The notes beneath the pieces are model-generated. The model made no database searches, had not been told where the DNA came from, and saw only the letters and a list, made by a program, of their open reading frames with translations. This document shows, piece by piece, positions 9,766 to 34,141 of a DNA stretch of 64,000 nucleotides (the first letter of the stretch is position 1; each line of letters starts with the position of its first letter). This DNA is from an uncultured bacterium (GTDB lineage: Bacteria; Actinomycetota; Acidimicrobiia; Spongiisociales; UBA5794). Both the position numbers and the translations under genes were made by a program. The DNA lies in the NCBI GenBank assembly GCA_963801165.1, contig CAWDDT010000011.1, positions 160,001 to 224,000 on the forward strand. Reading direction: 5' to 3'.

Positions 9766-10996
9766 AACTCCAACCTGACCGCCTACGCGGTCAGGCGGCT
9801 ACTTGATGATGTTGATGACCCGACCAGCACCGACAGTACGGCCACCCTCCCGAATCGCAAACCGCAACCCCTCATCCATAGCAATCGGCTTACCCAACTC
9901 CACCGTCATCTCAGTGTTATCACCAGGCATCACCATCTCAGTACCCTCAGGCAAAGACACCGTCCCAGTCACATCCGTCGTCCGGAAATAAAACTGCGGC
10001 CGATACCCATCAAAAAACGGGTTATGCCGACCACCCTCATCCTTAGTCAACACATACACCTGAGCCACAAAATTCGTATGAGGCGTAATCGAACCAGGCT
10101 TAGCAACCACCTGACCCCGCTCCACCGCATCCTTCCCAATCCCCCGCAACAACAACCCAACATTGTCCCCAGCCTGACCCTCATCAAGCAACTTACGGAA
10201 CATCTCAACACCAGTCACCGTCGTCGACTGCACATCCCGCAAACCAATGATCTCAACCTGCTCACCAACATGAATCACACCAGTCTCAATACGGCCAGTC
10301 ACCACCGTCCCCCGACCAGTAATCGAAAACACATCCTCAATCGCCATCATGAACGGCTTATCCGTCTCCCGCACCGGCTCAGGAATATACGAATCAACCG
10401 CATCCATCAACTCATGAATAGACGCAACCGCCGCCGGATCATTCTCCTCCAAAGCCTTCAAAGCAGACCCACGAACAACCGGAATGTCATCCCCAGGAAA
10501 CTCATACTCAGTAAGAAGATCCCGAACCTCGAGCTCAACCAGATCCAACAACTCCTCATCATCAACCTGATCAGTCTTATTCATATACACAACAATGTAA
10601 GGAACACCAACCTGACGAGCCAACAACACATGCTCACGAGTCTGCGGCATCGGACCATCAGCAGCAGACACCACCAAAATCGCCCCATCAACCTGAGCAG
10701 CACCCGTAATCATGTTCTTCACATAATCAGCATGCCCCGGCATATCAACATGCGCATAATGACGATTCGCCGTCTCATACTCCACATGAGCAATCGCAAT
10801 CGTGATACCCCGCTCCCTCTCCTCAGGAGCCTTATCAATCTCATCAAACGCCGTAAACTTCGTCGACCCCGACCCCTCCTCAGACAACACCTTCGTAATC
10901 GCAGCCGTCAAAGTCGTCTTCCCATGATCAATATGACCCATAGTCCCAACATTCACATGCGGCTTCGTCCGCTCGAACTTCTCCTTAGCCATCTTT
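9766..10996. repeat. 1231-bp direct repeat, copy 1 (tuf plus short flanks)
   Basis: Matches 32911-34141 (offset 23145); sense and in-register antisense translations of both copies appear identical. Confidence 0.93.
9799..10992 (-). CDS. tuf: Elongation factor Tu (str operon copy)
   Basis: [18 protein letters not shown] motifs; downstream of fusA. Confidence 0.99.
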
Positions 10997-11006
10997 GATC
11001 TCCTAG

Positions 11007-13091
11007 TTACTCGCCTCGAACCTTGGCCACGATCTCGCGTGCTGCTTCGGTCGGAACTTCCTGATACGAATGAAACTGCATGGTGTATTGCGCCCGTCCC
11101 TGAGTTCGTGACCTCAGGTCGGTGGCATAGCCGAACATCTCTGCCAGCGGCACCAGAGCGGTGACGAGCCGGGCATTGCCACGGGTGTCCATGGCCTCGA
11201 CCTTGCCCCGACGCGAGGAAAGGTCGCCGATGACATCGCCCATGTACTCCTCTGGTGTTACCACCTCGAGCTCCATCACGGGCTCGAGGAGCTTCACGCC
11301 GGCTTGTCTTGCGGCATCCTTCAGTGCCATAGAGCCCGCAATTCGGAACGCCATCTCGGACGAGTCAACCGCGTGGCTGCTTCCGTCGGTGAGTGTGGCC
11401 TTCAGATCGACAAGCGGGTAGCCCGCCAGCACGCCACCCTCGAGAGCGTCACGGAGACCCTTCTCGACGGCGGGGATGTACTCACGAGGCACACGGCCGC
11501 CCCTGACCTTGTCCTCGAACTCGAACCCGGTGCCGGGTGGCAGCGGATCGAGGCTGATGACCACCTCGGCGAACATACCGGAGCCACCGGTCTGCCGCTT
11601 GAGACGAAGCCTGAAACCGGAGACACCCTTCTTGACGGTCTCGCGGTAGGCGACCTGGGGGCGCCCCACGTTGGCCTGGACCTTGAACTCACGCATCAGA
11701 CGATCGACGATGATCTCGAGGTGAAGCTCGCCCATGCCGCTGATGATGGTCTGGCCGGTGTCCTCATCGGACCTGACCGTGAAGGTTGGATCCTCCTCGG
11801 CGAGCCGGCCCAGGGCGGTGGCGAGCTTGTCCTGGTCGCTCTTGGTTCTGGGCTCGATGGCAACTGCGATCACCGGAGCGGGAAAGGTCATCGACTCGAG
11901 TTGGATCTGGGCATCGGTTGCGGCGAGGGTATCCCCGGTCCTGGTGTGCTTGAGGCCGACTGCGGCAACGATGTCGCCGGTGTGGATCTCGTCGATGTCC
12001 TCCTGCGCGGCGGCGTGCATACGGAGGAGACGACCGAAGCGCTCCTTCTTCCGGTCCGTCGTATTGGTCACAGCATCGCCCTTGCCCGCCGTGCCCGAAT
12101 AGACACGGAAGTAGGTGAGCTTGCCAACATATGGGTCGGACATGATCTTGAAGGCGAGGGCGCTGAACGGCTCTTTGTCGTCGGCGTGCCTCTGGAGTGG
12201 CCTGTCCTCGTGCCCGGGTTGGAAGCCCTCGATCGGTGGCATGTCGAGCGGGCTCGGCAGGTAGTCGACGACCCCGTCGAGAAGCGGTTGGACACCTTTG
12301 TTCTTGAACGCCGAGCCGCACATCACCGGTACGAAGTCACGATCGATGGTGCCCTTGCGTATGACTTTGCGGATCTCCTTCGGGTCGAGATCGTCCTCCT
12401 GAAGGTACTTCCCCAGCAACTCCTCGTCCTCTGAGGCAACGACATCGAGCATCTTGTGATGCCATTCGTTGGCGAGATCTGCGAACTCCTCGGGAATGCC
12501 GACGATCTCTCGCTGCTTGCCTTCCTCGTCGTGCCAGATGATCGACTTCATCTCGACGAGGTCGATGACACCGTGGAAGTTCGCCTCGGCGCCCATCGGA
12601 ACCTGGATGGCAACCGGATTGCCACCGAGGCGCTCGACGATCGCCTCGACTGTGCCAAAGAAATCGGCGCCGACCCGGTCCATCTTGTTGATGAAACAAA
12701 TACGGGGGACCCGGTACTTGTCGGCCTGACGCCACACCGTCTCCGATTGGGGTTCGACACCAGACACGGCGTCGAACACGGCGACGGCACCGTCGAGGAC
12801 ACGCAGCGAGCGCTCCACCTCTACGGTGAAGTCGACGTGACCCGGCGTGTCGATGATGTTGATCACGTGGTCGTTCCAATGTGCGGTCGTCGCCGCCGAA
12901 GTGATGGTTATGCCGCGCTCTTGTTCCTGCTCCATCCAGTCCATCACGGCCGCGCCCTCATGGACCTCACCCATCTTGTAGGTGCGGCCCGTGTAATAGA
13001 GAATCCGCTCGGTGGTCGTGGTCTTCCCAGCGTCAATGTGGGCCATGATCCCGATGTTGCGGATTTTCTCGAGGGGGATGGTGCGTGCCAT
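11007..13091 (-). CDS. fusA: Elongation factor G
   Basis: [21 protein letters not shown]; 694 aa. Confidence 0.99.
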
Positions 13092-13099
13092 TTGGATTG

Positions 13100-13567
13100 T
13101 TACCAGCGGTAGTGGGCGAAGGCTCGGTTGGACTCCGCCATCTTGTGGATGTCTTCACGGCGCTTCACAGCAGAGCCGGTGCGGTTGGAGGCGTCGAGGA
13201 TCTCGTTGGCGAGTCGCAACGACATGGTGTTCTCTTTGCGCTTTCGGGCGAACTCAACGAGCCAACGGACCGCCAGCGTCTGCGCCCTGCGGGGAATGAC
13301 CTCGACCGGTACCTGATACGACGAGCCACCAACTCTGCGGGACCGCACCTCGACGGCGGGCCGGATGTTGTCGATCGCACGCTTCAGCACCTTGACGGGG
13401 TCGTCCCCCGTCCGCTTCTGCACAGTCTCGAGAGACCCATAGACGATGCGGCGAGCCGCGCCCTTCTTGCCCCGCCACAGCACTTTGTTGATCACCTGGG
13501 TGACCAAAACGCTGCGGTAGATCGGATCTGGCTCGAGTTTGCGGATTTCGGCTGGAGCCCTGCGCAT
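13100..13567 (-). CDS. rpsG: 30S ribosomal protein S7
   Basis: [28 protein letters not shown]. Confidence 0.99.
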
Positions 13568-13938
13568 CAGCCCTCCTTCTTCGTGCCGTAGCGGGAACGG
13601 GACTGCTTGCGGCCGTCGACGCCGGCGGCGTCGAGCGCTCCGCGAATGACCTTGTAGCGAACACCGGGAAGGTCCTTGACACGACCACCACGCACCAGCA
13701 CGATCGAGTGCTCCTGGAGGTTGTGGCCCTCTCCGGGGATGTACGCCGTGATCTCCATCTGTGAAGTCAGACGGACACGAGCGACCTTGCGCAGCGCGGA
13801 GTTCGGCTTCTTCGGTGTGACGGTGTAAACACGCGTGCAGACGCCTCGCCTCTGCGGCGAGCCGGCGAGACCGAGTGTCTTGGTCTTCTTCGGCTTAGGC
13901 TGACGGCCTTGTCGAATCAGTTGCTGCACAGTCGGCAC
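13567..13938 (-). CDS. rpsL: 30S ribosomal protein S12
   Basis: [28 protein letters not shown]. Confidence 0.99.
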
Positions 13939-14000
13939 AGTGCCTTCTTCTCTCTCTTCGGCGCACCCCTACTCCGATTCCGGAGCGGGTTCTTACAGAC

Positions 14001-14036
14001 AAAAATCGGCGCCACCGCAAAAGCGGGGGCCGCCGA
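14001..14036 (-). terminator. Terminator-like hairpin with U-tract inside the rpsL leader
   Basis: TCGGCGGCCCCCGC-TTTT-GCGGTGGCGCCGA-TTTTT on minus strand. Confidence 0.55.
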
Positions 14037-18439: not shown

Positions 18440-21400
18440 TTACTCGTCGTCTTCGGCGTCGAATGACTGTGTGCCCAGGCTGGCCAGCCACTGCGCCGGA
18501 TCGGCCGGAAGAGCCTCCTCGTCGCTGCCAGAGCCGTCGAGCTGGGCGTCGGGGAACAAGCCGAGCGCCGATACCACCGTCGCATCCGGTAGTGACGGCT
18601 GGATCGACTGGTACTTCGCCGAGCCCGTGCCGGCGGGGATGAGCTTGCCGATGATGACATTCTCCTTGAGACCCCGCATGAAGTCCGACTTGCCCTGAAG
18701 CGAAGCCTCGGTGAGCACCCGGGTCGTCTCCTGGAACGAAGCAGCCGACAGCCAGGAATCCGTGGCCAGCGAAGCCTTGGTGATACCCATGAGCTCCGGA
18801 CGGCCCTCTGCAGGGGCCTTGCCCTCTTCGACGAGAGACCGGTTGACGTCCCTGAACTCCTGCTCGTCGACCAGCTCGGCCGGGAGGAAGTGCGAGTCAC
18901 CGGAATTGACCACACGCACCTTGCGCAGCATCTGGCGCACGATCAGCTCGATGTGCTTGTCGTGGATATCCACACCCTGGCTGCGGTACACCTCCTGGAC
19001 CTGGTCAACCAGGTAACGCTGGCAGGCGCGCACACCCCGAATCTCCAGCACCTCCTTCGGATCCAGCGGACCTTCCGTGAGCTGGCTCCCGGCGGTGATG
19101 ATGTCGCCCGTGGCGACCTTGAGCCTGGCACGGCGAGCGAGCGGGTACTCGCTTTCCTCGTCCTTTTCGGTAACCACGACCCGGCGCCCCTCATCGTCGT
19201 CGATGAGCTGCACCACACCGCCGTGCTCGGCGAGCAGCGCCTTGCCCTTCGGGGTCCGAGCCTCGAACAGCTCGACCACGCGGGGAAGACCGTGGGTGAT
19301 GTCGTCGCCCGCAACACCACCAGTGTGGAAGGTACGCATGGTGAGCTGGGTACCCGGCTCACCGATCGACTGGGCGGCCATGATCCCAACTGCCTCACCC
19401 GATTCGACCATCAGGCCGGTTGCCAGGCTCAGACCGTACGACTCCTTGGAAATCCCGTAGCGAGACTGGTCGGTGAGAGGTGAGCGGACCCGCACCTCTT
19501 CGAGTTCAGCCTCCGCCTCGATGGCCTGGAGTGCGTCGCGGTCGACGAGCTCACCGGCACGCAGCTTGCGTCCACTAAATGTCTCGAGCAGTTTGCGCCC
19601 GACCTTGATGTCCTCGGCAAGTATCCGACCGTAGATCCGGTTCCGCAGGTTCCTGATCGGCTGACCGTGCTCACGCACCCGGATGAGAAGACCCGTATCG
19701 TCGGTCACCTCGTCATGGATGATGATCTCCTGCGACACGTCGACCAGCCGGCGGGTCAGGTACCCGGAGTCGGCAGTTCGCAGCGCCGTGTCGGCGAGAC
19801 CCTTGCGGGCACCGTGCGTTGAGATGAAGTACTCGAGCACGGACAGGCCCTCACGGAAGTTCGACTTGATCGGCTGCGGGATGATGTCACCCTTCGGGTT
19901 GGCCACCAGGCCACGCATACCGGCGATCTGACGCAGCTGCATCATGTTGCCGCGGGCACCCGAGCGCACCATCATGTCGATCGGGTTGAACTTCTCCGCC
20001 TCGAGCGTCGCCTGCATGGCCTCCTTGACCTCGTCGGTCGCCTCGGTCCAGATCTCGATGAGCTCCTGGCGACGCTCGTCATCAGTGATGACGCCTTTCA
20101 GATAGAGAGACTCCACCTTCTCGGCGCGTGCATCGTAGGCCGCAAGGATCGCCGCCTTCTGTGGCGGGGTCTTGACGTCCTCCAGACCGATGGTGAGACC
20201 GGCCTTCGTGGCGAACTTGAACCCGAGACTCTTGATCGAGTCGAGTGTTTCCGCGACATCCGGCTTGTCGTAGTCGTTGATGACCTCGGCAACCAGCGTC
20301 CGGATATCCGACTTCATCACCGGGGCATCGATGAACGGGAACGTCTCGGGGAATGCCGTGTTCATCACAGCACGCCCATACGAGGTCTCGAACAAGGCCG
20401 TGCCGTCGACCGGCTCCTCGGTAAGGAGATGACCGATGTATCTCTTCAACTCGGCGTGTCGCTCGGGGTCTCCGGCCAGGTCGCCGATACGCATCTTGAC
20501 CCTGGCATGGATATCGATGTCGCCCAACTCGTAGGCCATCGCCGCCTCGTCGATGTCGACGAACACACGGCCCTCGCCCTTGGCCCCATCGACGATCTCC
20601 GACAGGTAGAACATTCCAATGACCATGTCCTGAGACGGGGTGACGATCGGGCGCCCGGATGCCGGGGACAGCATGTTGTTCGTCGACAACATGAGAACCC
20701 GCGCCTCCGCCTGCGCCTCTGCCGACAACGGGAGATGCACAGCCATCTGGTCACCGTCGAAGTCGGCGTTGAAAGCCTCGCACACGAGCGGGTGGATCTG
20801 GATGGCCTTGCCCTCAACGAGAACGGGCTCGAAGGCCTGGATGCCGAGCCGGTGCAGCGTGGGGGCCCGGTTCAAGAAGACGGGGTGTTCCTGAACAACC
20901 TCGGATAGCACGTCCCACACCTGGGGGCGGCGCCGCTCGACCATCCTCTTTGCCGCCTTGATGTTCTGGGCGTGATCGAGATCGACCAGACGCTTCATGA
21001 CGAACGGCTTGAACAGCTCGAGCGCCATCGACCGCGGCAGGCCACACTGGTGCAGCCTGAGTTGCGGGCCGACGACGATGACCGAACGGCCGGAGTAGTC
21101 GACGCGCTTACCCAGCAGGTTCTGACGGAATCTTCCCTGCTTGCCCTTGAGCATGTCGGAGAGCGACTTGAGCGGCCGGCTCCCCGGTCCGGTCACCGCA
21201 CGACCGCGACGACCGTTGTCGAACAACGCATCGACGGCCTCCTGGAGCATCCTCTTCTCGTTGTTGACGATGATCTCGGGAGCACCCAGGTCGAGAAGCC
21301 GCTTGAGACGGTTGTTTCGGTTGATCACCCGCCGGTACAGGTCGTTGAGGTCCGAGGTGGCAAACCGACCACCGTCGAGCTGGACCATCGGGCGCAGATC

Positions 21401-22360
21401 GGGCGGGATCACGGGTACGGCCTCGAGAATCATCCCGGCGGGGTCGTTCTTGCCCCCGGCAAACGGGCTCACGACCTTGAGCCGCTTCATCGCCCGCTGG
21501 CGACGCTGCTGCGACCGGGAATCGAGGTCCTCACGGAGCGACTCCATCTCGGCATCGAGATCAGTGCGCTGGATCAGGTCCTTGACCCACTCGGCCCCCA
21601 TCCCGCCTGAGTAGTAGTCACCGTAACGGTCCACGATCTCGCGCCAGAGCTGCTCAGACTCGATCAGCTGCTTCGGCTTGAGGGTCTTGAACGTGTCGAA
21701 AGCCTCTTTGAGGAGGTCCTCCTCGACCGAGGCTCGTTCCTCGCGATCCTTGATCTCACGCTCGACGTCACGCCGACGAGCCGAGATCTCCTGGGTCGGG
21801 GCTTCGGCCTCCTCCATCTGCTTCAGCTCGGCTTCGAGCTGTTCGAGACGCGATTCCTTCCACTCCTCGAACTCTTCCCGGATCAGCTCGAGCTCATGGC
21901 TCGTTGCCTCCTCGAGCTCCGAGAGATCCGCAGTGCGCTTGTCGACGTCTATGGACGTGATCAGATACGCGGCGAAGTAGATGACCTTCTCCAGGTCCTT
22001 CGGGGACATGTCGAGCAAATAGCCGAGACGGCTGGGAACGCCCTTGAAGAACCAGATGTGTGTCACCGGTGCGGCCAGCTCGATGTGGCCCATCCGCTCC
22101 CGGCGAACCTTGGCGCGGGTCACCTCGACCCCACACCGCTCACAGGTGATGCCGCGGAAACGGACCCGCTTGTACTTGCCGCAGTAGCACTCCCAGTCCC
22201 GCGTGGGACCAAAGATGCGCTCGTCAAACAAGCCGTCCTTCTCCGGCTTGAGCGTCCGGTAGTTGATAGTCTCCGGCTTCTTGACCTCACCAAACGACCA
22301 CGACCGGATCTGGTCGGAGCTGGCCAGGCTGATTCTCAGTTCGTCGAATAAGTCAACCAC
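18440..22360 (-). CDS. rpoC: RNA polymerase beta' subunit
   Basis: NADFDGD active site, Zn finger, actinobacteria-type N-terminal coiled-coil insertion. Confidence 0.99.
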
Positions 22361-22405
22361 GTAATGCCCACCTTCCGGCTCTTTCCAGCATCTTTGTAAT
22401 CCTCA

Positions 22406-25759
<3,354 letters not shown>

Positions 25760-25910
25760 GGGAGACTCCTCTTCAAGTTGTGGGACGACGGTCAAGTCAG
25801 TCGAAACGGATGGGCAGGGTGTAGACGACGAAAGACCAGGATAGCACACAGCTATCCTGGCGATGCAAACGCGGCGTCGCTGGGAACGTACTCTTCAAAT
25901 GTTGTTGCGC

Positions 25911-25939
25911 ACGATACAAAAGATTCGTCGCCGGTTCAA
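25911..25939 (-). promoter_or_regulatory. Putative rpoBC promoter
   Basis: TTGAAC-N17-TATCGT on minus strand. Confidence 0.55.
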
Positions 25940-26076
25940 GGGTCTACCGGCCCATCTCCGGCGGGAAGGTCCCGACCCCTACCGCTCCTAACCATCGAAG
26001 TCCGGCCACGCAGCGATGTCGATACCGTGCCCATTCCCGGGTGCAGCCCGAGGGGCAGCCGTCTCGATGCGGACGC

Positions 26077-26108
26077 AAAAGAGGAGCGGGCATGCCCGCT
26101 CCTCTTTT
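26077..26108. terminator. Intrinsic terminator after rplL
   Basis: AAAAGAGGAGCGGG-CATG-CCCGCTCCTCTTTT perfect palindrome. Confidence 0.85.
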
Positions 26109-26155
26109 CTACCTGTGCTTTTTCTGTCTGTGCTTCTTCTATCTGTGTTCGCCTG

Positions 26156-26539
26156 CTACTTGAGCTCGACTGTGGCCCCGACCCCTTCGAGCTGCGCCTT
26201 GGCGGCCTCGGCTGCCTCCTTGTCGACACCCTCGAGGACCGCGTTCGGAGCACCGTCCACGACCTCCTTGGCCTCCTTGAGACCCAGGCTGGTCAATCCA
26301 CGGACGACCTTGATGACCTGAATCTTCTGTGAGCCTGCCGAGGTGAGGACGACGTCGAACTCGTCTTGCTCCTCCTCGACAGCTTCCGCTGCTGCCGCGG
26401 GAAGCGCTGCGGCCATTGCCATAGGAGCGGCCGCAGTGACGTCGAACTTCTCTTCAAATGCCTTGAGAAACTCGGAAAGCTCGAGGACGCTCATCTCCTC
26501 GAAGACACCTAGGAGCTCCTCGGTCTTCATCTTTGCCAT
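26156..26539 (-). CDS. rplL: 50S ribosomal protein L7/L12
   Basis: [28 protein letters not shown]; ATG 26539. Confidence 0.98.
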
Positions 26540-26540
26540 G

Positions 26541-27344
26541 TCATTCCTCCTCGGCCGAATCGGCCGGGTCTTCGTCATCGGACTTCGCGTCGTCGCCGTC
26601 TACCGATGCCTCTGGCTCGGCTTGTGTCACGGCAGCCTCTTCAACCTCTGCTTCGGCTTCCGGAACGTCTACGGCTTCGCCGGTCTCTTCTTCGCCTGCC
26701 GCTTCCGGCTCCTCGGCTGAGTCGGTCTCTGCAGCCGGCGTCTCTGCGGGAACGTCCCCGGCTTCTGGGACCTCCGCCTCGATCACCGGCTCGGCGTCAG
26801 CGGCCGGTTCCTCGACCGGCTCGGCTGCTGCTTCCCTCTTCTCAACGAGCTGCTGCATCGCAGATGCCATGTTGCGAGGAAGGGCCGCAAGCAAACCGGC
26901 GAGGTTTGCCATCGGCGCCTTCAGCAACCCGGCGATCTTGCTCAGCAACACATCGCGGGATTCGATCTCGGCGAGCTGGCTGATCCGTTCGGGCGTGAGG
27001 AATTCGTTCCGCAGGAGCCCACCTTTGACGGTGAAGGCTTCGTTGTCGTTGGCGAAGTCCTTGAGCGTCTTTGCCGCGGCGACCGGGTCTCCCTCGGCAA
27101 AAGCGATACCAGTGGGCCCGAGGAGCAGCTCCTCGAGTTCGGTCAGCTCCAGCTCGGCAGCCGCCCGGCGGGCCAGGGTCATCTTGACGACCTTGAACTC
27201 GGCTCCGCCTTCGCGCAGCCCGCGCCGCAGCGCCTGCTGCTGCTTGACCGACAGACCGGCGTACTCAGCGAGGAACACTGCGTTTGCGCGCTCGAGAAGT
27301 TCTTTGATCTCAGCGACGGCCTGGACCTTCTCTGGTCTTGGCAT
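26541..27344 (-). CDS. rplJ: 50S ribosomal protein L10 with acidic C-terminal extension
   Basis: ATG 27344 ([10 protein letters not shown]) after AGGAGG; EYAGLSV, GPTGIAF. Confidence 0.97.
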
Positions 27345-27384
27345 GTGTCTTCCTCCTACTGGTCTACGCAACACGACCTCGCTT

Positions 27385-27542
27385 CGGCAGTGAAGCCCGA
27401 GCCTCGTGCAACAAGACTCGAGCCTCGCAGCTTGAGCTGCCCCAGTAAGAACTGAAGCTCCCAACCCAAGAGGGAGGGAGCCTTTGAGAAAGCAACCTGC
27501 GCCGGCGCCGCTGCTGCGGACTTAGTTACCTGCGGTCTTGGG
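27385..27542 (-). promoter_or_regulatory. L10 leader (autoregulatory RNA)
   Basis: AAGACCGCAGG...CCGGCGCAGG kink-turn-like signature upstream of rplJ. Confidence 0.7.
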
Positions 27543-27568
27543 TCGAGATATGAGGTTGTGCGGACGAG

Positions 27569-27597
27569 ACACTAACGAAGGCGGTTCCGCTACGCAA
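27569..27597 (-). promoter_or_regulatory. Putative rplJL promoter
   Basis: TTGCGT-N17-TAGTGT immediately before L10 leader. Confidence 0.55.
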
Positions 27598-27612
27598 GGT
27601 GAGACCACTCGT

Positions 27613-27663
27613 TCCTCTCCCTCCGGGAGAGGATGCCGAGCGAAGCGAAGGCGGGCGAGGGCC
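27613..27663 (+). repeat. RIME/CIR-like palindromic repeat (family A), single copy
   Basis: CTCTCCCTCCGGGAGAGGATGCCGAGCGAAGCGAAGGCGGGCGAGGGCC; matches copies at 47.9 and 55.6 kb. Confidence 0.8.
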
Positions 27664-27750
27664 TCAGCAAATGTGCGAGACCAGTCCGCACCCCCTGAGT
27701 CTGCAAAGCAAAATCACATGCCGCCTCACACAATGGGTGAGGCGGTGACG

Positions 27751-27784
27751 AATAGACGAAACGCCCGTCACCGGGCGCTTCGTC
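27751..27784 (-). terminator. Intrinsic terminator in rplA-rplJ intergenic region
   Basis: GACGAAGCGCCCG-GTGA-CGGGCGTTTCGTC-TATT. Confidence 0.65.
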
Positions 27785-28107
27785 GGTAACGGGCTAACTC
27801 TCGGTCGGGAGAGCGGTTCGCTCATGAGGATTCGGGCAGACGGCGGGCCAGGAAGCCATCTACACGTACCACCAATGACGACCAGGGTAGGGGCTGGTAT
27901 TTGTCAAAGTGGCCGAAACCCGCCCTCGGAACGGTGGTGGATCGTTCCTGCCACCGACCTCGGAGTTTCCCCGTTGATCTTTAGTTGTGGGACGATCATA
28001 TCGCGGGGATACGTGGTCCGCCAGTGAAATGTAGTCAAAAATCGCGAATATGCCACTCTCTGTGGTCGAGCGACTCCCCGAAGATGACATAACCGTCGCT
28101 TGCGGTG

Positions 28108-28824
28108 CTAGCGAAGCGCCTTGAGGTCATCCTCGAGCCGGCTCGGATCGAGGTTCACGCCGGGGCCCATCGTGGACGAGACGGTCACCTTGCGCACAAA
28201 ACGACCCTTGGCGGCCGCAGGACGCGCCCGGATGATCTCGTCGGCGAGGGCAACGAGGTTGCCGATGAGCTGTTCCGGCTCGAAGGAGACCTTCCCGATG
28301 GGCACATGCACGTTGCCATACCGGTCGTTGCGATATTCGACACGGCCGGCCTTGAACTCCTTGATCGCCTTGCCGACGTCCTGGGTGACCGTGCCGCTCT
28401 TCGGATTTGGCATTAGCCCGCGTGGGCCGAGAATCGAGCCGAGCTTGCCGACGACCGACATCATGCTCGGGGTGGCGATTGCGATGTCGAACTCGATGGG
28501 ACCACCGGCCGAGATCTGGTCTGCGAGATCTTTGCCGCCGATCACGTCGGCGCCCGCTTCCTCCGCCTCGGCGATCGCCGCACCATCGACAAAGGCGGCG
28601 ACGCGCACGTCCTTGCCCGTGCCGTTGGGCAGGCTCACGGTGCCACGTACCAGCTGGTCTGCCTTGCGGGCGTCGATACCGAGGTTGAAAACCACATCGA
28701 CACTCTCATCGAACTTGGCGTACGCCATGCTCCGCACCAGAGCAACCGCATCCTCGGAACTGAGGAGAGCGCTCTTGTCGTACTGCCGTCGCACTGCGGC
28801 GACGTTCTTCGACTTCTTTGCCAT
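28108..28824 (-). CDS. rplA: 50S ribosomal protein L1
   Basis: AKFDESVD..VRGTVSLPNGTGK..LGPRGLMPNPK. Confidence 0.99.
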   Translation of the reverse strand: MAKKSKNVAAVRRQYDKSALLSSEDAVALVRSMAYAKFDESVDVVFNLGIDARKADQLVRGTVSLPNGTGKDVRVAAFVDGAAIAEAEEAGADVIGGKDLADQISAGGPIEFDIAIATPSMMSVVGKLGSILGPRGLMPNPKSGTVTQDVGKAIKEFKAGRVEYRNDRYGNVHVPIGKVSFEPEQLIGNLVALADEIIRARPAAAKGRFVRKVTVSSTMGPGVNLDPSRLEDDLKALR

Positions 28825-28839
28825 TTCCGTTTACCTCCT

Positions 28840-28870
28840 GTGGTGCCGGCGGGGATGGCTCCCCTCCCAC
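28840..28870 (-). promoter_or_regulatory. Putative L1-binding mRNA operator before rplA
   Basis: GTGGGAG-GGGA-GCCA-TCCC-CGCCGGC-ACCAC just upstream of rplA RBS, resembling L1 sites. Confidence 0.55.
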
Positions 28871-29000
28871 TTATCTGTTGTCACCCGACCGCTGCCGGCC
28901 GGGACATTTCCCGTCACGTTCTGCTGGTTTCTCACCATCGAGGCGTGTAACCGTCAGATGGTATCTCAGGCGGGCGACCTCGCTGAATCCCGCCACCTCA

Positions 29001-29429
29001 TCAGCCGTCGACGGTGATCCCCATCGAGCGGGCGGTACCCTCGACAATCTTCATCGCGGCGTCGATATCGTTGGCGTTGAGATCCACCATCTTCGTCTCG
29101 GCGATATGACGTACCTGTTCTCGCGTCACCCTGCCCACCTTCTCCTTCTGCGGCTCCGCCGACCCCTTCTCGACTCGAGCGGCCTGTCGCAGCATCACCG
29201 CGGCGGGTGGGGTCTTGGTCACGAAGGTGAAACTGCGATCCTCGTAGATCGAGATCTCCACCGGGATGATGGTGCCTACTTGTGACGCGGTGGCATCGTT
29301 GTATGACTTGACGAAATCCATGATGTTGACGCCGTGCTGACCGAGGGCAGGGCCCACGGGCGGTGCCGGGCTCGCCTGCCCGGCAGGGATCTGCAGCTTG
29401 AGCATGGTCATCAGTCTCTTGCGACCCAT
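29001..29429 (-). CDS. rplK: 50S ribosomal protein L11
   Basis: [23 protein letters not shown]. Confidence 0.99.
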
Positions 29430-29450
29430 TGGTTGAACCTCGCTTGGGAA

Positions 29451-30092
29451 TCAGTATTTGAGAATCTGGTCGAAGTTGAGTTCGACGGGGGTTTCCCGGC
29501 CAAAGATATCAACGAGCACCCGCACCTTCGACTGGTCCACGTTGATGTCCTCGATGATGCCGTTGAAATCGGCGAAGGGGCCTTCGACCACCCTGATCGT
29601 CTCCCCGACCTCCCAGGCCGGCTTGAACGTGGGCTCCTTCTTGTCGGCCGAGTCCTCGTCCTTGGCGACGCCGAGAATGCGCTCGACCTCGCGCCGCGAT
29701 AGCGGCGTCGGCTTGGATGCGGATCCGACGAATCCGGTCACGCCCGGGGTGTTGCGAACTGCATACCAGGTGTCGTCGTCCATATAGAGACGAACCAGGA
29801 TGTAGCCGGGGAACTTCTTGCGCTCCACGGTGACCTTGCGCCCGGCCTTGAACTCGACGACCTCTTCCATCGGGATGACCACGTCGAAGACGCGATCCTC
29901 GAGGTGCATCGATTTGACCCGCGTCTCGAGGTTTGCCTTCACCTTCTTCTCGTACCCCGAGTACGAGTGCACGACGTACCAGCCGCCGGGCAGGTCGTAC
30001 GGGCTCGAAGGTCCCTTGGGCTTGACGGCCTCGGCTTCCGCGGCAGTCTCGTCCTCGACTATGTCCTGGCTATCAGGAGCTTCCAGCGTCAT
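29451..30092 (-). CDS. nusG: Transcription factor NusG
   Basis: WYVVHSYSGYE..VRNTPGVTGFVG..IFGRETPVEL. Confidence 0.98.
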   Translation of the reverse strand: MTLEAPDSQDIVEDETAAEAEAVKPKGPSSPYDLPGGWYVVHSYSGYEKKVKANLETRVKSMHLEDRVFDVVIPMEEVVEFKAGRKVTVERKKFPGYILVRLYMDDDTWYAVRNTPGVTGFVGSASKPTPLSRREVERILGVAKDEDSADKKEPTFKPAWEVGETIRVVEGPFADFNGIIEDINVDQSKVRVLVDIFGRETPVELNFDQILKY

Positions 30093-30095
30093 GGC

Positions 30096-30374
30096 TCACC
30101 CGGCCCCGAGCAACTGCAGGATCGTGTTCTTGAGACCGAAGTCGAGTGCAAAGGTGAATCCCGTCACCGCAACGGTGACGATGAGCACGACAATCGTGAA
30201 CGTGGTCGTCTCTTCCCTGGTAGGCCAGGCGACCTTCTTCAGCTCTTGTCGCACTTCGTGCAGGAATTGACGGAAACCGACGCGCTCGCGCTTGTGCTGC
30301 TGCGGGACAGCTTTGCGGCGTTTCTTGGCGCGCTCTTCCTCCTTGGCCTGGAGGCGTCGCATCTCTCGGTTCAC
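30096..30374 (-). CDS. secE: Preprotein translocase SecE
   Basis: FLHEVRQELKKVAWP plus TM; GTG 30374 after AAGGAAGG. Confidence 0.95.
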   Translation of the reverse strand: MNREMRRLQAKEEERAKKRRKAVPQQHKRERVGFRQFLHEVRQELKKVAWPTREETTTFTIVVLIVTVAVTGFTFALDFGLKNTILQLLGAG

Positions 30375-30396
30375 GTTTGATTCCTTCCTTGCCGAG

Positions 30397-30470
30397 CAGG
30401 GGTGGCGGGACTCGAACCCACAGCCTACGGTTTTGGAGACCGTCGCTCTGCCAATTGGAGCTACACCCCT
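30397..30470 (-). tRNA. tRNA-Trp (CCA)
   Basis: AGGGGTGTAGCTCCAATTGGCAGAGCGACGGTCTCCAAAACCGT...GTTCGAGTCC. Confidence 0.96.
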
Positions 30471-30496
30471 CAACATAGGCCTGGGGCCGGGGGTGG

Positions 30497-30525
30497 AGTA
30501 TATGAGGTCGCCCCCTAAGTGTAAA
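30497..30525 (-). promoter_or_regulatory. Promoter for tRNA-Trp-secE-nusG
   Basis: TTTACA-N17-TATACT. Confidence 0.7.
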
Positions 30526-30638
30526 CCTGACGCGGTCCTCCCGGGTCGGTTCATCCGCTCGCCCGGACCGTGACCAGAGTCGAGGTGGTCTTTGGGGCAC
30601 AAACGAATCCTAGCCGGAGCGGCCCGCAGTGCTCGAGG

Positions 30639-31561: not shown

Positions 31562-31565
31562 CGGG

Positions 31566-32438
31566 TTACCCCTCCAACCTGACGACACAACCGGCCGTGA
31601 CCAGCTTCTCGTCTCCCCTGGCGACCTCGACGTCCATCTGACAATCCTCGCCGTCGGCGGCCAGGTCGCGCACCACAGCGCTCACCATCGCCGGCTCGGC
31701 AGGGCGCAACGCGCTCCGGAATCTGAGCTTGATGTGAGCGAGAGGGTCGGGCCGAGCACTCATTGCCCCGGCGAGTTGGATTGCCCAGGCTGCCATCAAG
31801 AGGCCGTGAACAACGATGCCGTCGAGACCGGCGTGGCGGGCGGCGTCGTGGTCAAAATGTATCGGGTTGTAGTCGCCTGACGCTCCGGCGTACTTGACGA
31901 GGTCGATTCGACTCGCCGACTTGGACAAGGCGGGCAGCGTCCCGCCGATGCCGGGTCGAGGAACGACGTGGGGGCGTTCGTTGAGTTCCCGCTTCCACAC
32001 CACCGGCTCGCGGTGGTCGGAGCCCGCCTCGGGTGCGGACCCTTCCCCCATCAGAAATGTGGCCACCGCATCGACAACCCGCTCGCCTGCGGCGGTGCCG
32101 ACGCGGGCCGAGAAGGTCACAAAGAAAGAGCCTGCGCGCTCCCGGACACGGTCAACCGATCCGGTGACGATCAGTGCCGCACCCACCGGAAGCGGTGCGT
32201 GCCAGGTAAAGGTCTGGTCGACGTGAACGAGCACGCCGGTGAAGGGCCGAACTCGTGGATCGTCGAGAAACCTGGGAGCTACGACAAACAAGAGCGCCGC
32301 GGCGTAGCCCGGTGGGGCAAAGCGCTGCCAGCGATCTTCATCGTCACCGGTTGCGGTCACGTATTCGGCGACCTTCTCTGCCGAGATGCCAACCGCATAC
32401 GGTCCGTAGGTGGCTCCGGCGACTTCCTCGAGACTCAT
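31566..32438 (-). CDS. Double hot-dog MaoC-like dehydratase (HadA-HadB-like fusion)
   Basis: VHVDQTF and YAGASGDYNPIHFD..HGLL; next to rpmG as in actinobacterial hadAB; start reset to ATG 32438. Confidence 0.85.
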   Translation of the reverse strand: MSLEEVAGATYGPYAVGISAEKVAEYVTATGDDEDRWQRFAPPGYAAALLFVVAPRFLDDPRVRPFTGVLVHVDQTFTWHAPLPVGAALIVTGSVDRVRERAGSFFVTFSARVGTAAGERVVDAVATFLMGEGSAPEAGSDHREPVVWKRELNERPHVVPRPGIGGTLPALSKSASRIDLVKYAGASGDYNPIHFDHDAARHAGLDGIVVHGLLMAAWAIQLAGAMSARPDPLAHIKLRFRSALRPAEPAMVSAVVRDLAADGEDCQMDVEVARGDEKLVTAGCVVRLEG

Positions 32439-32521
32439 CGTGGAAAAGGGTACCCGCTTCACCGTCCCGCCGCGAGGGTGGCTCGGCGGGGGAAGACTCC
32501 ATTGCAGGCAGTCATCTACCA

Positions 32522-32661
32522 GGCCCCCATCGGCTTTGCCACTTCCCCCAAAGGGGGAAGGAATGCGGCGCCCACCGGCTTCAGCCGCTTCCCACGGAGG
32601 GGGAAGGAATATGGCCCCCATCGGCTTCGCTGCGCTCAGCCACTTCCCCCAAAGGGGGAAG
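32522..32661 (-). repeat. Three tandem family A palindromic repeats between rpmG and MaoC gene
   Basis: CTTCCCCCTTTGGGGGAAGTGGC...GCCGATGGGGGCC twice plus a degenerate middle copy. Confidence 0.8.
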
Positions 32662-32669
32662 TCATGGCG

Positions 32670-32831
32670 TCAGCGGGTTTCGCGGTGTGGGGTGTGCTCG
32701 CGGCACCAGCGGCAGTACTTCTTCAGCTCCAGCCGCTCGCGCGTGTTCGACTTGCTCTTGGTGGTGACGTAGTTGCGACGCTTGCATTTCTCGCAAGCGA
32801 GCGTCAACGGCGGTCTCTTGTCAGATGCCAT
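32670..32831 (-). CDS. rpmG: 50S ribosomal protein L33, Zn-binding form (missing from ORF track)
   Basis: [53 protein letters not shown]. Confidence 0.96.
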
Positions 32832-32910
32832 GTTGCTTCGATCCTATCCAATCCAATGTATGCGACCAGCTCCGGTCTCGCTGGGCTCCGGTTGGAGTTT
32901 CGCCGGGCGG

Positions 32911-34141
32911 AACTCCAACCTGACCGCCTACGCGGTCAGGCGGCTACTTGATGATGTTGATGACCCGACCAGCACCGACAGTACGGCCACCCTCCCGAAT
33001 CGCAAACCGCAACCCCTCATCCATAGCAATCGGCTTACCCAACTCCACCGTCATCTCAGTGTTATCACCAGGCATCACCATCTCAGTACCCTCAGGCAAA
33101 GACACCGTCCCAGTCACATCCGTCGTCCGGAAATAAAACTGCGGCCGATACCCATCAAAAAACGGGTTATGCCGACCACCCTCATCCTTAGTCAACACAT
33201 ACACCTGAGCCACAAAATTCGTATGAGGCGTAATCGAACCAGGCTTAGCAACCACCTGACCCCGCTCCACCGCATCCTTCCCAATCCCCCGCAACAACAA
33301 CCCAACATTGTCCCCAGCCTGACCCTCATCAAGCAACTTACGGAACATCTCAACACCAGTCACCGTCGTCGACTGCACATCCCGCAAACCAATGATCTCA
33401 ACCTGCTCACCAACATGAATCACACCAGTCTCAATACGGCCAGTCACCACCGTCCCCCGACCAGTAATCGAAAACACATCCTCAATCGCCATCATGAACG
33501 GCTTATCCGTCTCCCGCACCGGCTCAGGAATATACGAATCAACCGCATCCATCAACTCATGAATAGACGCAACCGCCGCCGGATCATTCTCCTCCAAAGC
33601 CTTCAAAGCAGACCCACGAACAACCGGAATGTCATCCCCAGGAAACTCATACTCAGTAAGAAGATCCCGAACCTCGAGCTCAACCAGATCCAACAACTCC
33701 TCATCATCAACCTGATCAGTCTTATTCATATACACAACAATGTAAGGAACACCAACCTGACGAGCCAACAACACATGCTCACGAGTCTGCGGCATCGGAC
33801 CATCAGCAGCAGACACCACCAAAATCGCCCCATCAACCTGAGCAGCACCCGTAATCATGTTCTTCACATAATCAGCATGCCCCGGCATATCAACATGCGC
33901 ATAATGACGATTCGCCGTCTCATACTCCACATGAGCAATCGCAATCGTGATACCCCGCTCCCTCTCCTCAGGAGCCTTATCAATCTCATCAAACGCCGTA
34001 AACTTCGTCGACCCCGACCCCTCCTCAGACAACACCTTCGTAATCGCAGCCGTCAAAGTCGTCTTCCCATGATCAATATGACCCATAGTCCCAACATTCA
34101 CATGCGGCTTCGTCCGCTCGAACTTCTCCTTAGCCATCTTT
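32911..34141. repeat. 1231-bp direct repeat, copy 2
   Basis: Matches 9766-10996; diverges just outside these ends. Confidence 0.93.
32944..34137 (-). CDS. tuf: Elongation factor Tu (second copy, tRNA-linked)
   Basis: Protein identical to 9799-10992. Confidence 0.99.

What the first reader, a model, noticed from the sequence alone, without database searches (positions are those of the whole stretch)
9766..34141. Duplicated tuf genes recoded to G/T at wobble positions: GRINS-like repeat-confined mutational process in a housekeeping gene
Seen: 59 of the first 60 tuf codons end in G or T (GCT, CAT, GAT, ATT, TTG...; one C, no A), whereas 13 of the first 23 codons of the adjacent fusA end in C, as do many codons elsewhere in the window. 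The skew is confined to the duplicated segment, present in both copies, and relaxes in the last codons (GTC ATC AAC ATC ATC). Translational selection is a poor explanation because equally highly expressed fusA and r-protein genes do not show it. Known: GRINS (Genetic Repeats of Intense Nucleotide Skews, Nivina et al. 2021) are about 1-kb repeats with G>C and T>A skews, described mainly from Streptomyces assembly-line PKS. Inference: strand-biased gene conversion or ssDNA deamination (C>T, A>G on one strand) acts specifically on repeated DNA, loosely analogous to fungal RIP, and here recodes EF-Tu.
Basis: partly seen in the sequence, partly recalled or inferred. Interest (0 to 1): 0.82.

Follow-up and report, generated by a model that had tools for sequence, protein, structure and literature searches.

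The report
Gene-conversion-linked G/T recoding of duplicated tuf
The two identical genes for translation factor EF-Tu in this actinobacterium are written almost only with G- or T-ending codons, a bias seen in relatives only where two copies keep overwriting each other, which makes this housekeeping gene a natural test system for an unexplained class of skewed DNA repeats.

Summary
The tuf genes (9799-10992 and 32944-34137, minus strand) lie in a 1231-bp repeat that is 100% identical. Of 397 codons, 376 end in G or T, 21 in C, none in A. They are the most extreme genes of the genome (G+T at third positions 0.95; genome 0.47, sd 0.05). Adjacent, co-oriented fusA is normal.

[quoted passage not shown] Across the class, judged by C/A-ending codons 2-200, 65 of 68 genomes with a near-identical tuf pair carry the bias. 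None of 14 single-copy genomes or 5 with diverged copies do.

Two further points:
- The bias runs as a gradient. It is total from codon 2, fades toward the 3' end, and in four genomes reverses there. A tandem repeat in a gene on the other strand has the same shape along the inferred replication direction.
- The mismatch endonuclease NucS cuts only G/T-containing mismatches. It was found in 62 of 62 genomes with a skewed pair tested for it. Four converting pairs without the bias (G434, G514, G567, G043) all lack a NucS hit. Two skewed pairs also lack one, and independent lineages are few.

The mechanism is inferred. This scan has already reported the tuf bias in other Acidimicrobiia genomes.

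The parts
9799..10992 (-). tufA (EF-Tu, 397 aa), last gene of rpsL-rpsG-fusA-tufA; 376 of 397 codons end in G/T
   Evidence: context from Pfam
9766..10996 (-). repeat copy A (1231 bp): CDS plus about 4 nt upstream and 36 nt downstream. The downstream part reads as a 9-bp hairpin followed by a T-containing run, terminator-like by eye; not scanned with a tool
   Evidence: hairpin read directly from the sequence
32944..34137 (-). tufB (EF-Tu), CDS 100% identical to tufA
32911..34141 (-). repeat copy B (1231 bp), 23,145 bp from copy A, same orientation
11007..13091 (-). fusA (EF-G), 14 nt upstream of tufA; internal control with normal codon usage (C3 0.46, G+T at third positions 0.46)
13100..13938 (-). 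rpsG and rpsL (S7, S12), start of the str operon
9417..9773 (-). rpsJ (S10), directly downstream of tufA; normal composition
34183..34511 (-). tRNA-Tyr, tRNA-Thr, tRNA-Met directly upstream of tufB (the classical tufB context)
18440..30602 (-). tRNA-Trp, secE, nusG, rplK, rplA, rplJ, rplL, rpoB, rpoC between the two tuf copies; all unskewed
9631..10998 (+). stop-free antisense 'shadow' ORF (455 aa) opposite tufA; its twin at 32773-34224 (483 aa) lies opposite tufB. Read as by-products of the recoding, not genes

Best explanation
The two tuf genes are an old tufA/tufB pair in different genomic contexts, kept identical by ongoing gene conversion. They are a GRINS. A bias coupled to that conversion, and asymmetric between the two DNA strands, has driven nearly every synonymous site to G or T on the coding strand. 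The protein is unchanged.

Shown here:
- The bias is confined to the converted tract.
- It is present only where a near-identical pair exists.
- It affects synonymous positions only.
- It is graded 5' to 3'.
- The codons that resist most are TTC, AAC and ATC.

Inferred:
- The coding strand of tuf is also the leading strand.
- The bias acts on heteroduplex DNA formed when a single-stranded 3' tail from one copy invades the other. The strand whose 3' end points into the repeat gains G/T.
- The breaks that start conversion come mostly from replication forks entering the repeat. That would make the fork-proximal edge most affected and the far edge neutral or reversed.
- Translational selection opposes the drive, which would explain the resistant codons.
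- The drive is lost, and codon usage reverts to C-ending codons, once one copy is lost or the copies escape conversion.
For: GRINS thresholds are met: 1231 bp, 100% identity, mean |GC skew| 0.42 and |TA skew| 0.24.

Identity between copies is confined to the CDS in 34 pairs examined: 0-16 nt upstream and 1-115 nt downstream.

In the order, 34 of 35 genomes with a pair at least 98% identical have GC skew above 0.25 and TA skew above 0.05. 0 of 8 with one copy or diverged copies (85-87% identity) do.

Class-wide, using the C/A-ending fraction of codons 2-200:
- 68 converting pairs: 65 lie below 0.45.
- 14 single-copy genomes: 0.47-0.61.
- 5 diverged pairs: 0.44-0.57.

fusA next to tufA is normal in 45 of 45 genomes, with no spill-over into its last 60 codons in the 7 genomes checked for that.

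Amino-acid composition is unchanged and the skew sits at position 3 and in Leu TTG: His CAT 0.96 against 0.18, Leu TTG 0.78 against 0.11.

Gradient: mean C/A-ending fraction in 20-codon bins rises from 0.05 to 0.57 in the skewed genomes (39 by the call's criterion). G062, G069, G116 and G133 run from 0.00 to 0.84-0.91, above the unskewed level of about 0.6.

Between-copy differences are rarer at the 5' end: deciles 5, 4, 6, 9, 13, 14, 16, 14, 13, 15 of 109 differences.

The same sawtooth occurs at synonymous sites of three 903-bp tandem repeats in a minus-strand surface-protein gene on a contig whose plus strand is G-rich throughout.

In G000, 300-bp windows with both skews at least 0.2 lie in repeats in 38% of cases, against 3.1% of all windows.

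The E. coli K-12 tufA/tufB pair (98.9% identical) is unskewed, with C/A fraction 0.49-0.50.
Against: - Association is not cause. On the EF-Tu tree only 3-4 independent contrasts of pair against no pair exist. All go the expected way, but the sign test gives p = 0.25.
- Four converting pairs are unskewed (G434, G514, G567, G043) and G030 is skewed only in its first 40 codons or so. Conversion alone is therefore not sufficient.
- Many repeats of G000 are unskewed.
- The claim that the sign follows the leading strand rests on GC-skew-inferred replichores. For the 31 repeat-associated skewed regions, the split of 25 with the leading strand against 6 could be a tail effect of the weak chromosome-wide skew. 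Two short repeats (C11:379286-381589 and C5:178878-179347) show the opposite polarity of decay.
- Within this window's element the GC and TA skews do not co-vary (r = -0.05), because the element is saturated.
- No molecular intermediate was observed.
Confidence: 0.8

Rival explanations
1. Recombination-associated mutagenesis rather than biased conversion. Each conversion either exposes one strand as single-stranded DNA (deamination C>T, A>G), or resynthesises one strand without mismatch repair. Polymerase G-T mispairs would then load the new strand with G and T.
For: The sign and the strand asymmetry fit 3' tails.

In nucS-deleted Streptomyces lines, leading-strand A>G exceeds T>C about three-fold, and C>T exceeds G>A (715 against 274). 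Raw replication errors are therefore keto-enriching on the leading strand (PMC11109965, passages read).

Nivina et al. proposed error-prone synthesis through tautomers (PMC8256042, discussion read).
Against: - A single-copy gene repaired from its sister chromatid would suffer the same exposure, yet 14 of 14 single copies are normal.
- C to G transversions are at least as common as C to T at four-fold sites.
- Genomes with no NucS hit, in which every replication error would go uncorrected, should then be at least as skewed. Their tuf pairs are normal (G434, G514, G567, G043).
Confidence: 0.2
2. Selection on the tuf mRNA: a C-poor, G/U-rich message folds less and would resist Rho-dependent termination, so the recoding is adaptive. 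An earlier scan note raised this.
For: Predicted folding energy of skewed tuf mRNAs is -0.35 kcal/mol per nt (G000, G005, G158, G387), against -0.43 to -0.47 for four unskewed single-copy orthologues. The trait is stable across a whole class.
Against: - It gives no reason why selection should act only where a second, converting copy exists.
- fusA, 14 nt upstream and on the same strand, is untouched in 45 of 45 genomes.
- The 3' end returns to normal or becomes C/A-rich.
- The recoding goes against the C-ending codons preferred in unskewed tuf.
- A minus-strand surface-protein repeat shows the mirror-image composition on its coding strand.
Confidence: 0.05
3. Reverse causation. The skew arose for another reason, and low-complexity G/T-rich sequence simply recombines more. 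Skewed pairs would then stay identical while unskewed pairs drift apart. This is the second hypothesis of Nivina et al.
For: Diverged pairs are unskewed (G057, G096, G129, G326). The idea is stated in PMC8256042 (discussion read).
Against: - Unskewed pairs can stay 98.6-100% identical with diverged flanks (G434, G514, E. coli).
- The skew starts exactly at the homology boundary.
- The origin of the skew would remain unexplained.
Confidence: 0.1
4. Recent horizontal transfer of a tuf gene from a donor with G/T-biased codon usage, followed by duplication.
For: The GC content of tuf (0.52) is well below that of the genome (0.64).
Against: - The bias occurs across the class, with EF-Tu trees that group by the taxonomy codes.
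- The flanks are old and differ between the copies.
- The closest tuf genes outside the clade are unskewed: only 1 of 80 diverse loci resembles it, and that locus is an Acidimicrobiales MAG.
Confidence: 0.01

Closest known systems
[quoted passage not shown] Read: abstract, the discovery section, discussion, and passages of the methods and distribution sections. The SI is a PDF and could not be read)
   Same: A duplicated tract over 500 bp and over 80% identical, with mean |GC| and |TA| skew above 0.15. G travels with T. The bias is strongest at third codon positions, the protein is kept, and the tract is linked to gene conversion. The sign can switch within an element (seen here in relatives). 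GRINS are common in actinobacteria.
   Different: - Here the element is a universal, highly expressed housekeeping gene, not a polyketide synthase or a mobile gene. 'tuf', 'EF-Tu' and 'elongation factor' do not occur in the main text; the supplement may list it.
- The comparison of pair against single copy, the 5'-to-3' gradient and the NucS association are not in that paper. 'NucS', 'EndoMS' and 'mismatch' have 0 occurrences.
tufA/tufB concerted evolution (Lathe and Bork 2001 and Kondrashov 2007, as cited in PMC6053082; Paulsson et al. 2017, PMC5485169, abstract read; PMC6053082, passages read)
   Same: Two loci in the classical contexts (after fusA; after tRNA genes and before secE-nusG), with identity confined to the coding region. 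Long-lasting conversion is reported in six phyla, including Actinobacteria.
   Different: - Those papers report no compositional skew; 'skew' has 0 occurrences in PMC6053082.
- The E. coli pair is unskewed.
- In Salmonella, conversion starts uniformly and runs both ways (PMC5485169 abstract), whereas here the footprint is polar.
GC-biased gene conversion (recalled from general knowledge; no paper read here)
   Same: A fixation bias that arises from how mismatches in recombination heteroduplex are handled. It acts like selection and can oppose codon adaptation.
   Different: gBGC favours G and C on both strands alike. Here the favoured set is G and T on one strand, so a strand asymmetry and a keto/amino discrimination are both needed.
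NucS/EndoMS non-canonical mismatch repair (review PMC8228993 and PMC11109965; passages read)
   Same: The enzyme prefers G-T, G-G and T-T mismatches and shows little or no activity on A-C. That is the same G,T against A,C axis as the skew. It makes double-strand breaks at mismatches, and its loss raises homeologous recombination ten-fold at 90% identity.
   Different: No paper found links NucS to GRINS or to skew in repeats. The link here is correlative only.
Fungal repeat-induced point mutation (RIP; recalled)
   Same: A process that marks duplicated DNA.
   Different: RIP makes C>T on both strands and destroys genes. Here only synonymous sites change, transversions are included, one strand is favoured and the gene stays intact.
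Chromosome-wide replication strand skew (recalled: leading strands are rich in G and T)
   Same: Same sign (G and T on the inferred leading strand).
   Different: It is ten-fold weaker: about 0.03-0.05 in this genome against 0.42. It is also not confined to repeats.

Membership tests
GRINS (Nivina et al. 2021) | Duplicated region longer than 500 bp | tested here: met
   1231 bp
GRINS (Nivina et al. 2021) | More than 80% DNA identity to another region of the same cluster or genome | tested here: met
   100% over 1231 bp, with the copies 23 kb apart
GRINS (Nivina et al. 2021) | Means of absolute GC and TA skew above 0.15 (150-nt windows, step 30) | tested here: met
   0.42 and 0.24 in 37 windows
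GRINS (Nivina et al. 2021) | GC and TA skews correlated along the element (typical, not part of the formal definition) | tested here: inconclusive
   Both skews have the same sign throughout, but r = -0.05 inside this saturated element. In relatives with a gradient both fall together.
GRINS (Nivina et al. 2021) | Skew strongest at third codon positions; protein function kept | tested here: met
   Position-3 GC skew 0.68 and TA skew 0.93 in skewed genes, against -0.13 and 0.42 in unskewed. Amino-acid composition is unchanged and the frames are intact.
tufA/tufB concerted evolution | Two loci in distinct, conserved contexts | tested here: met
   rpsL-rpsG-fusA-tufA-rpsJ, and tRNA(Tyr,Thr,Met)-tufB ... 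tRNA-Trp-secE-nusG-rplK
tufA/tufB concerted evolution | Paralogues within a genome more alike than orthologues between genomes, with identity ending at the gene borders | tested here: met
   100% within G000, with the closest orthologue 93% identical at the protein level (nucleotide identity to orthologues was not computed). Flanks are unrelated beyond 4 nt and 36 nt. The same holds in 34 relatives.
Fungal-type RIP | C-to-T transitions on both strands that inactivate the repeat | tested here: not met
   One strand only, C to G as common as C to T, and no stops or amino-acid drift
Codon adaptation of highly expressed genes | Same preferred codons as other highly expressed genes of the genome | tested here: not met
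   fusA, rpoB, rpoC and the ribosomal-protein and nusG ORFs tested use C-ending codons (C3 0.34-0.47) against 0.05 in tuf

The most novel reading that the evidence does not exclude
GRINS-type skew may be made by the actinobacterial/archaeal mismatch endonuclease NucS (EndoMS).

The logic:
- NucS recognises only mismatches built from G and T.
- At any site where two repeat copies differ by a keto base (G/T) against an amino base (A/C), the two reciprocal heteroduplexes are therefore treated differently.
- Intermediates with G/T-only mismatches would be cut and aborted. Those with A/C-only mismatches would pass.
- If the invading strand has a fixed polarity (3' tails of breaks inside the repeat, mostly from forks), G and T are driven to fixation on that strand. 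The strength falls from the fork-proximal edge and reverses at the far edge.

Support:
- NucS was found in 62 of 62 genomes with a skewed converting tuf pair that were tested.
- Among 7 converting pairs with no NucS hit, 4 are unskewed (G434 at 99% complete, G514 and G567 at 97%, and G043, whose sub-clade has 0 hits in 5 genomes), 1 is nearly so (G030) and 2 are skewed (G100, G273; their congeners have NucS).
- NucS status of G514 and G567 was read before their skew was computed, so those two were blind predictions.
- Positive controls rang in the whole-protein search.

Weak points:
- On the EF-Tu tree the three full-length unskewed NucS-negative rows (G434, G514, G567) account for only 2 changes of skew state. 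G043, known from a partial gene, was not in that tree. In the 3 starred independent contrasts the skew went the expected way in 1 and did not differ in 2.
- Other genes may have been lost together with nucS.
- The GRINS paper reports GRINS in groups that I recall as lacking NucS (cyanobacteria, firmicutes, amoebae); this was not checked here.
Probability: 0.4. Interest if true: 0.9.

Novelty: new member of a known kind. Interest (0 to 1): 0.74.

Why it matters
GRINS were described in 2021 as an unexplained way in which bacteria rewrite repeated genes, and no mechanism is known.

tuf offers a clean natural experiment, with four advantages:
- It is one universal gene whose protein sequence is held constant.
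- An unskewed control gene (fusA) sits next to it on the same strand.
- Dozens of related lineages have a converting pair, a diverged pair or a single copy.
- A quantitative read-out is available in the gradient along 1.2 kb.

The results tie the skew to ongoing conversion and give it a polarity. They also point to one testable enzyme, NucS, whose known substrate preference matches the G,T against A,C axis.

If the NucS link holds, it would explain why GRINS abound in actinobacteria. It would also describe a new form of biased gene conversion strong enough to override codon selection in one of the cell's most expressed genes.

There is a practical consequence too. Identical tuf pairs probably break short-read assemblies: 159 of 301 genomes of the order had no full tuf hit.

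Tried and rejected
- **Naming the organism.** The search for related loci in genome contigs returned only distant tuf genes (at most 79% aa), so the organism could not be named from it. The class name Acidimicrobiia comes from one hit title (L081) and from earlier scan notes.
- **G022's third tuf-like match.** It sits alone on a 1231-bp contig and is unskewed. It is probably a binning stray and is not a usable internal control.
- **Sign of skew against leading or coding strand.** Across 78 skewed regions of G000, 61 match the leading strand, and 26 have the G/T-rich strand as the coding strand (the other 52 include regions with no gene call). The weak chromosome-wide skew alone could give a similar ratio in the tails, so I use only the clean large repeats.
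- **Independent-contrast tests.** They are underpowered: p = 0.25 for pair against skew. For NucS against skew there are 3 starred contrasts, of which 1 goes the expected way and 2 show no difference. The Fisher test on raw counts (p = 0.0004) ignores relatedness and should not be quoted alone.
- **NucS in G030, G100 and G273.** It was not found by profile or by protein. These assemblies are 85-96% complete and their congeners have NucS, so these three rows cannot be read either way.
- **MutS as a replacement for NucS.** MutS_V was not found in any of the 16 distinct genomes of the class that were tested, G000 among them.
- **Spectrum of the 109 between-copy differences** (G/T 36, C/T 32, C/G 19, A/G 14, A/C 4, A/T 4). 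It does not separate the models.
- **Rows left out of the final table:**
  - G014 (NucS not tested).
  - G043 (only 89 codons assembled; reported separately).
  - Fragmented single-match genomes of unknown copy number. Skewed: G003, G006, G012, G125, G247, G309, G310. Intermediate: G001, G009, G011.
  - Single-match unskewed genomes G015, G027, G034, G035 and G038.
- **Unpublished genomes.** G027 and G038 entered only, as two more unskewed single-match genomes. No conclusion rests on them.
- **Tool errors.** (a term of more than four words) was reworded.

Full report
**1. What is there.**
The window carries the classical two-tuf arrangement on the minus strand.
- tufA (9799-10992) closes rpsL-rpsG-fusA-tufA and is followed by rpsJ.
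- tufB (32944-34137) follows tRNA-Tyr, tRNA-Thr and tRNA-Met. It lies upstream of tRNA-Trp-secE-nusG-rplK-rplA-rplJ-rplL-rpoB-rpoC.
- The two genes lie in a 1231-bp repeat (9766-10996 and 32911-34141) that is 100% identical. Identity begins about 4 nt before the ATG and ends 36 nt after the stop; beyond that the flanks are unrelated.

**2.
- 59 of the first 60 codons end in G or T, and 13 of the first 23 fusA codons end in C.
- Over the gene, 376 of 397 codons end in G/T, 21 in C and none in A. 7 of the 21 C-ending codons are in the last 14 codons.
- On the coding strand, GC skew is +0.42, TA skew +0.22 and GC 0.52, against 0.60-0.65 in the flanks.
- Among 3133 rough gene calls of at least 150 codons in the 4.55-Mb genome, G+T at third positions averages 0.475 (sd 0.052). 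The tuf genes have 0.95 and the next gene 0.78. The gene calls come from a simple model of my own, built on codon positions 1 and 2.
- fusA, rpoB, rpoC and six other tested ORFs of the window (ribosomal proteins L3, L10 and L1, NusG, a MaoC-type dehydratase and one unannotated ORF) have 0.45-0.54.

**3. It is a GRINS by the published definition.**
Nivina et al. define GRINS as duplicated regions over 500 bp and over 80% identical, with means of absolute GC and TA skew above 0.15 in 150-nt windows (PMC8256042, section read).
- Here the values are 1231 bp, 100%, 0.42 and 0.24.
- Their main text does not mention tuf or EF-Tu. The supplement is a PDF that I could not read.
- Three literature searches found no report of a skew in tuf pairs.
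- This scan, however, has already reported the same tuf bias in other Acidimicrobiia genomes. Those notes also supply the class name. I did not verify it beyond one named hit (L081, an Acidimicrobiales MAG with the same bias) and the NucS-positive, MutS-negative repair make-up.

**4. The recoding is purely synonymous.**
I compared 37 skewed with 12 unskewed tuf genes of the order.
- Amino-acid composition is the same.
- His CAT is 0.96 against 0.18. Asp GAT is 0.88 against 0.15. Tyr TAT is 0.87 against 0.10. Leu TTG is 0.78 against 0.11.
- Four-fold sites moved from C to both G and T (Ala GCC 0.59 became GCG 0.58 plus GCT 0.37). Simple C>T and A>G deamination therefore does not describe it.
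- The codons that resist most are TTC (0.48), AAC (0.45) and ATC (0.35). This fits opposing translational selection, which is an inference.

**5. The bias needs a converting pair.**
- In the order, 142 of 301 genomes gave a full tuf hit. I fetched loci from 56 genomes.
- Pairs are old duplicates. In 34 pairs, identity stops within 0-16 nt upstream and 1-115 nt downstream.
- 34 of 35 genomes with a pair at least 98% identical have GC skew above 0.25 and TA skew above 0.05. The exception is G030.
- None of 8 genomes without a converting pair do. These are five single-copy genomes in 1-9 contigs and three with copies 85-87% identical or broken.
- Adjacent fusA is normal in 45 of 45 genomes, and its last 60 codons are normal in the 7 genomes checked for that.
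- In other orders of the class, 17 of 18 further pairs at least 99.5% identical have a lowered C/A-ending fraction; the exception, G434, is unskewed. The 19 single-match genomes fetched in that batch include 15 that are normal and four (G414, G449, G457, G465) that had a second match which I did not fetch; three of those four are skewed. Two diverged pairs are normal or nearly so.
- With one measure for all, the C/A-ending fraction of codons 2-200, the final table reads:
  - 62 converting pairs with NucS: 0.01-0.38.
  - 14 single copies: 0.47-0.61.
  - 5 diverged pairs: 0.44-0.57.
- The E. coli K-12 pair, 98.9% identical, has 0.49-0.50, like its fusA at 0.47.
- On the EF-Tu tree the skew changes state at least 10 times. 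The 3-4 independent contrasts of pair against no pair all go the same way, too few for significance (p = 0.25).

**6. A polarity.**
- In the skewed genomes (39 by the call's criterion) the C/A-ending fraction per 20 codons rises from 0.05 at the start to 0.57 at the end. The unskewed level is 0.47-0.67.
- Four genomes of one family show a steady rise from 0.00 to 0.84-0.91, above the normal level (G062, G069, G116, G133). In codons 330-395 of G069 the four-fold sites read A 11, C 22, G 1, T 4. That is a reversal of sign.
- G030, the apparent exception, is skewed in its first 40 codons or so only (0.10 and 0.20).
- Differences between the two copies are rarer near the 5' end: 15 of 109 in the first three deciles against 42 in the last three. 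Homogenisation and skew therefore fall together.

**7. The same shape elsewhere in this genome, and not tied to transcription.**
- 300-bp windows with both skews at least 0.2 and of one sign lie in repeats in 38% of cases. Only 3.1% of all windows do.
- The clearest case is a surface protein with three 903-bp tandem repeats (Big_7 domains, 99.9% identical) at G000 C4:764068-767790, on the minus strand.
  - At synonymous sites each unit runs, in the coding direction, from 0.12 to 1.00 C/A-ending.
  - Read on the plus strand, that is a jump to nearly pure G/T at the left edge of each unit, fading to a reversal at the right edge.
  - The plus strand of that contig is G-rich in 42 of 43 20-kb bins, so I infer it is the leading strand.
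- tuf lies on the minus strand of a contig whose minus strand is G-rich.
- A DUF222-HNH gene pair (93% identical) on inferred lagging strands is also G/T-rich on the leading strand.
- Two short repeats decay the other way. The wider count of signs could be a tail effect.
- I hold as likely, not shown, that the G/T-rich strand is the one with leading-strand polarity and that the bias is strongest at the edge the fork meets first.

**8. The NucS lead.**
- G000 has NucS and no MutS.
- According to the review PMC8228993 (passages), NucS prefers G-T, G-G and T-T mismatches, shows little or no activity on A-C, and cuts both strands. Its loss raises homeologous recombination ten-fold at 90% identity in Mycobacterium smegmatis. 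That substrate set is the G,T against A,C axis of the skew.
- NucS was found in 266 of 301 genomes of the order and 210 of 251 of the class sample.
- All 62 skewed converting pairs that I could score have it.
- Seven converting pairs have no hit:

| Genome | Completeness | Pair | C/A-ending fraction, codons 2-200 |
|---|---|---|---|
| G434 | 99% | CDS 100% identical, flanks diverged | 0.56 |
| G514 | 97% | 98.6% identical | 0.64 |
| G567 | 97% | 100% identical; identity runs at least 180 nt downstream | 0.58 |
| G043 | 87% | two contig ends, 266 of 267 nt identical, one locus after fusA | 0.61 over 89 codons |
| G030 | 85% | 99.4% identical | 0.42 |
| G100 | 96% | 99.7% identical | 0.10 |
| G273 | 85% | second copy broken | 0.04 |

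- For G514 and G567, NucS status was read before their skew was computed.
- In G043's part of its family there are 0 NucS hits in 5 genomes.
- Congeners of G030, G100 and G273 do have NucS, so those three may be assembly gaps or recent losses.
- A whole-protein search with positive controls gave the same negatives.
- MutS was found in none of the 16 distinct genomes of the class that were tested.
- Against over-reading:
  - On the EF-Tu tree the skew changes state only twice among these 68 rows.
  - Of 3 well-supported independent contrasts in NucS, 1 goes the expected way and 2 show no difference.
  - Other genes may have been lost together with nucS.
  - The GRINS paper reports GRINS in groups that, from recall, lack NucS.
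- No paper in the library links GRINS with mismatch repair.

**9. How it most likely works.**
Shown: a conversion-dependent, strand-asymmetric, polar, synonymous drive toward G/T.

Inferred model:
- A break inside one copy, often from a fork that has entered the repeat, leaves a 3' tail that invades the other copy.
- Where the copies differ by a keto against an amino base, one heteroduplex carries a G/T-only mismatch and the reciprocal one an A/C-only mismatch.
- If the first kind is cut and aborted (NucS) and the second passes and is settled by replication, G/T alleles on the invading strand are protected and A/C alleles are replaced.
- Tails from one-ended breaks cover a site with a probability that falls from the entry edge to the far edge. 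This gives the gradient.
- Two-ended breaks add the opposite polarity at the far end. This gives the reversal.

The sign depends on whether mismatched intermediates are aborted or corrected. I could not decide that from sequence.

A purely mutational version (tail deamination, or unrepaired synthesis errors) fits the sign. It fails on three counts:
- single copies are normal;
- C to G changes are common;
- genomes without a NucS hit should then be at least as skewed, given that raw replication errors in nucS mutants are themselves keto-enriching on the leading strand (PMC11109965, passage read).

Selection on the mRNA is a weak rival. Skewed messages are predicted to fold about 22% less strongly. 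But this explains neither the dependence on a second copy, nor the normal fusA, nor the reversal.

**10. Verdict.**
The tuf pair is a new member of a known but unexplained kind (GRINS), and this scan has seen it before in related genomes. Its value lies in the comparative contrasts, the polarity and a concrete candidate enzyme.

Noticed in passing
window 9631-10998 (+) and 32773-34224 (+): Stop-free antisense ORFs of 455 and 483 aa lie opposite the two tuf genes. They are most likely by-products of the G/T recoding, and gene finders may call them.
   Followed up: no
G000 C4:764068-767790 (outside the window): A surface protein carries three 903-bp tandem repeats (Big_7 Ig domains, 99.9% identical). 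Synonymous sites form a sawtooth from 0.12 to 1.00 C/A-ending in each unit. This is a second strong GRINS in the genome, with the mirror composition on its coding strand.
   Followed up: partly
G000 C11:155154-155924 and C6:358527-359645: A DUF222-HNH endonuclease gene pair, 93% identical over 1.18 kb, has a C/A-rich coding strand. Nivina et al. noted endonucleases among actinobacterial GRINS.
   Followed up: partly
G000 C9:430484-433354: Two neighbouring transposase genes (rve/Mu-type and IS110-type) on the same strand carry opposite intense skews, with an abrupt switch near 432,050. Neither is repeated in this genome.
   Followed up: no
relatives, downstream of tuf (e.g. L135/L136 of G058, L131/L132 of G065, L125/L126 of G041, L156/L157 of G103): The 50-115 nt after the stop codon that both tuf copies share often consist of tandem 7-base repeats. 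This matches the heptamer-repeat class noted earlier by this scan.
   Followed up: no
L178 (G100 C13:172621-173805): A third tuf copy with three in-frame TGA stops (74% identity) keeps the skew (GC 0.36, TA 0.12). The bias therefore decays slowly once conversion and selection stop.
   Followed up: partly
order and class surveys: 159 of 301 and 83 of 251 mostly short-read genomes gave no full tuf hit, and several contigs end inside tuf (G043, G102, G120, G132). Identical tuf pairs probably break assemblies, so tuf copy number in MAGs is under-counted.
   Followed up: partly
class survey: Whole families of the class gave no NucS hit (f16 0 of 12, f24 0 of 13, f27 0 of 2). The three members tested also lack MutS. 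These lineages have no known mismatch repair system.
   Followed up: partly
L099, L061: tuf genes of a Glassbacteria MAG and a Gemmatimonadota MAG have strong GC skew (0.41 and 0.32) but negative TA skew. This is a G-loaded, C-poor variant without the T enrichment. An earlier scan note describes similar cases in other phyla.
   Followed up: no
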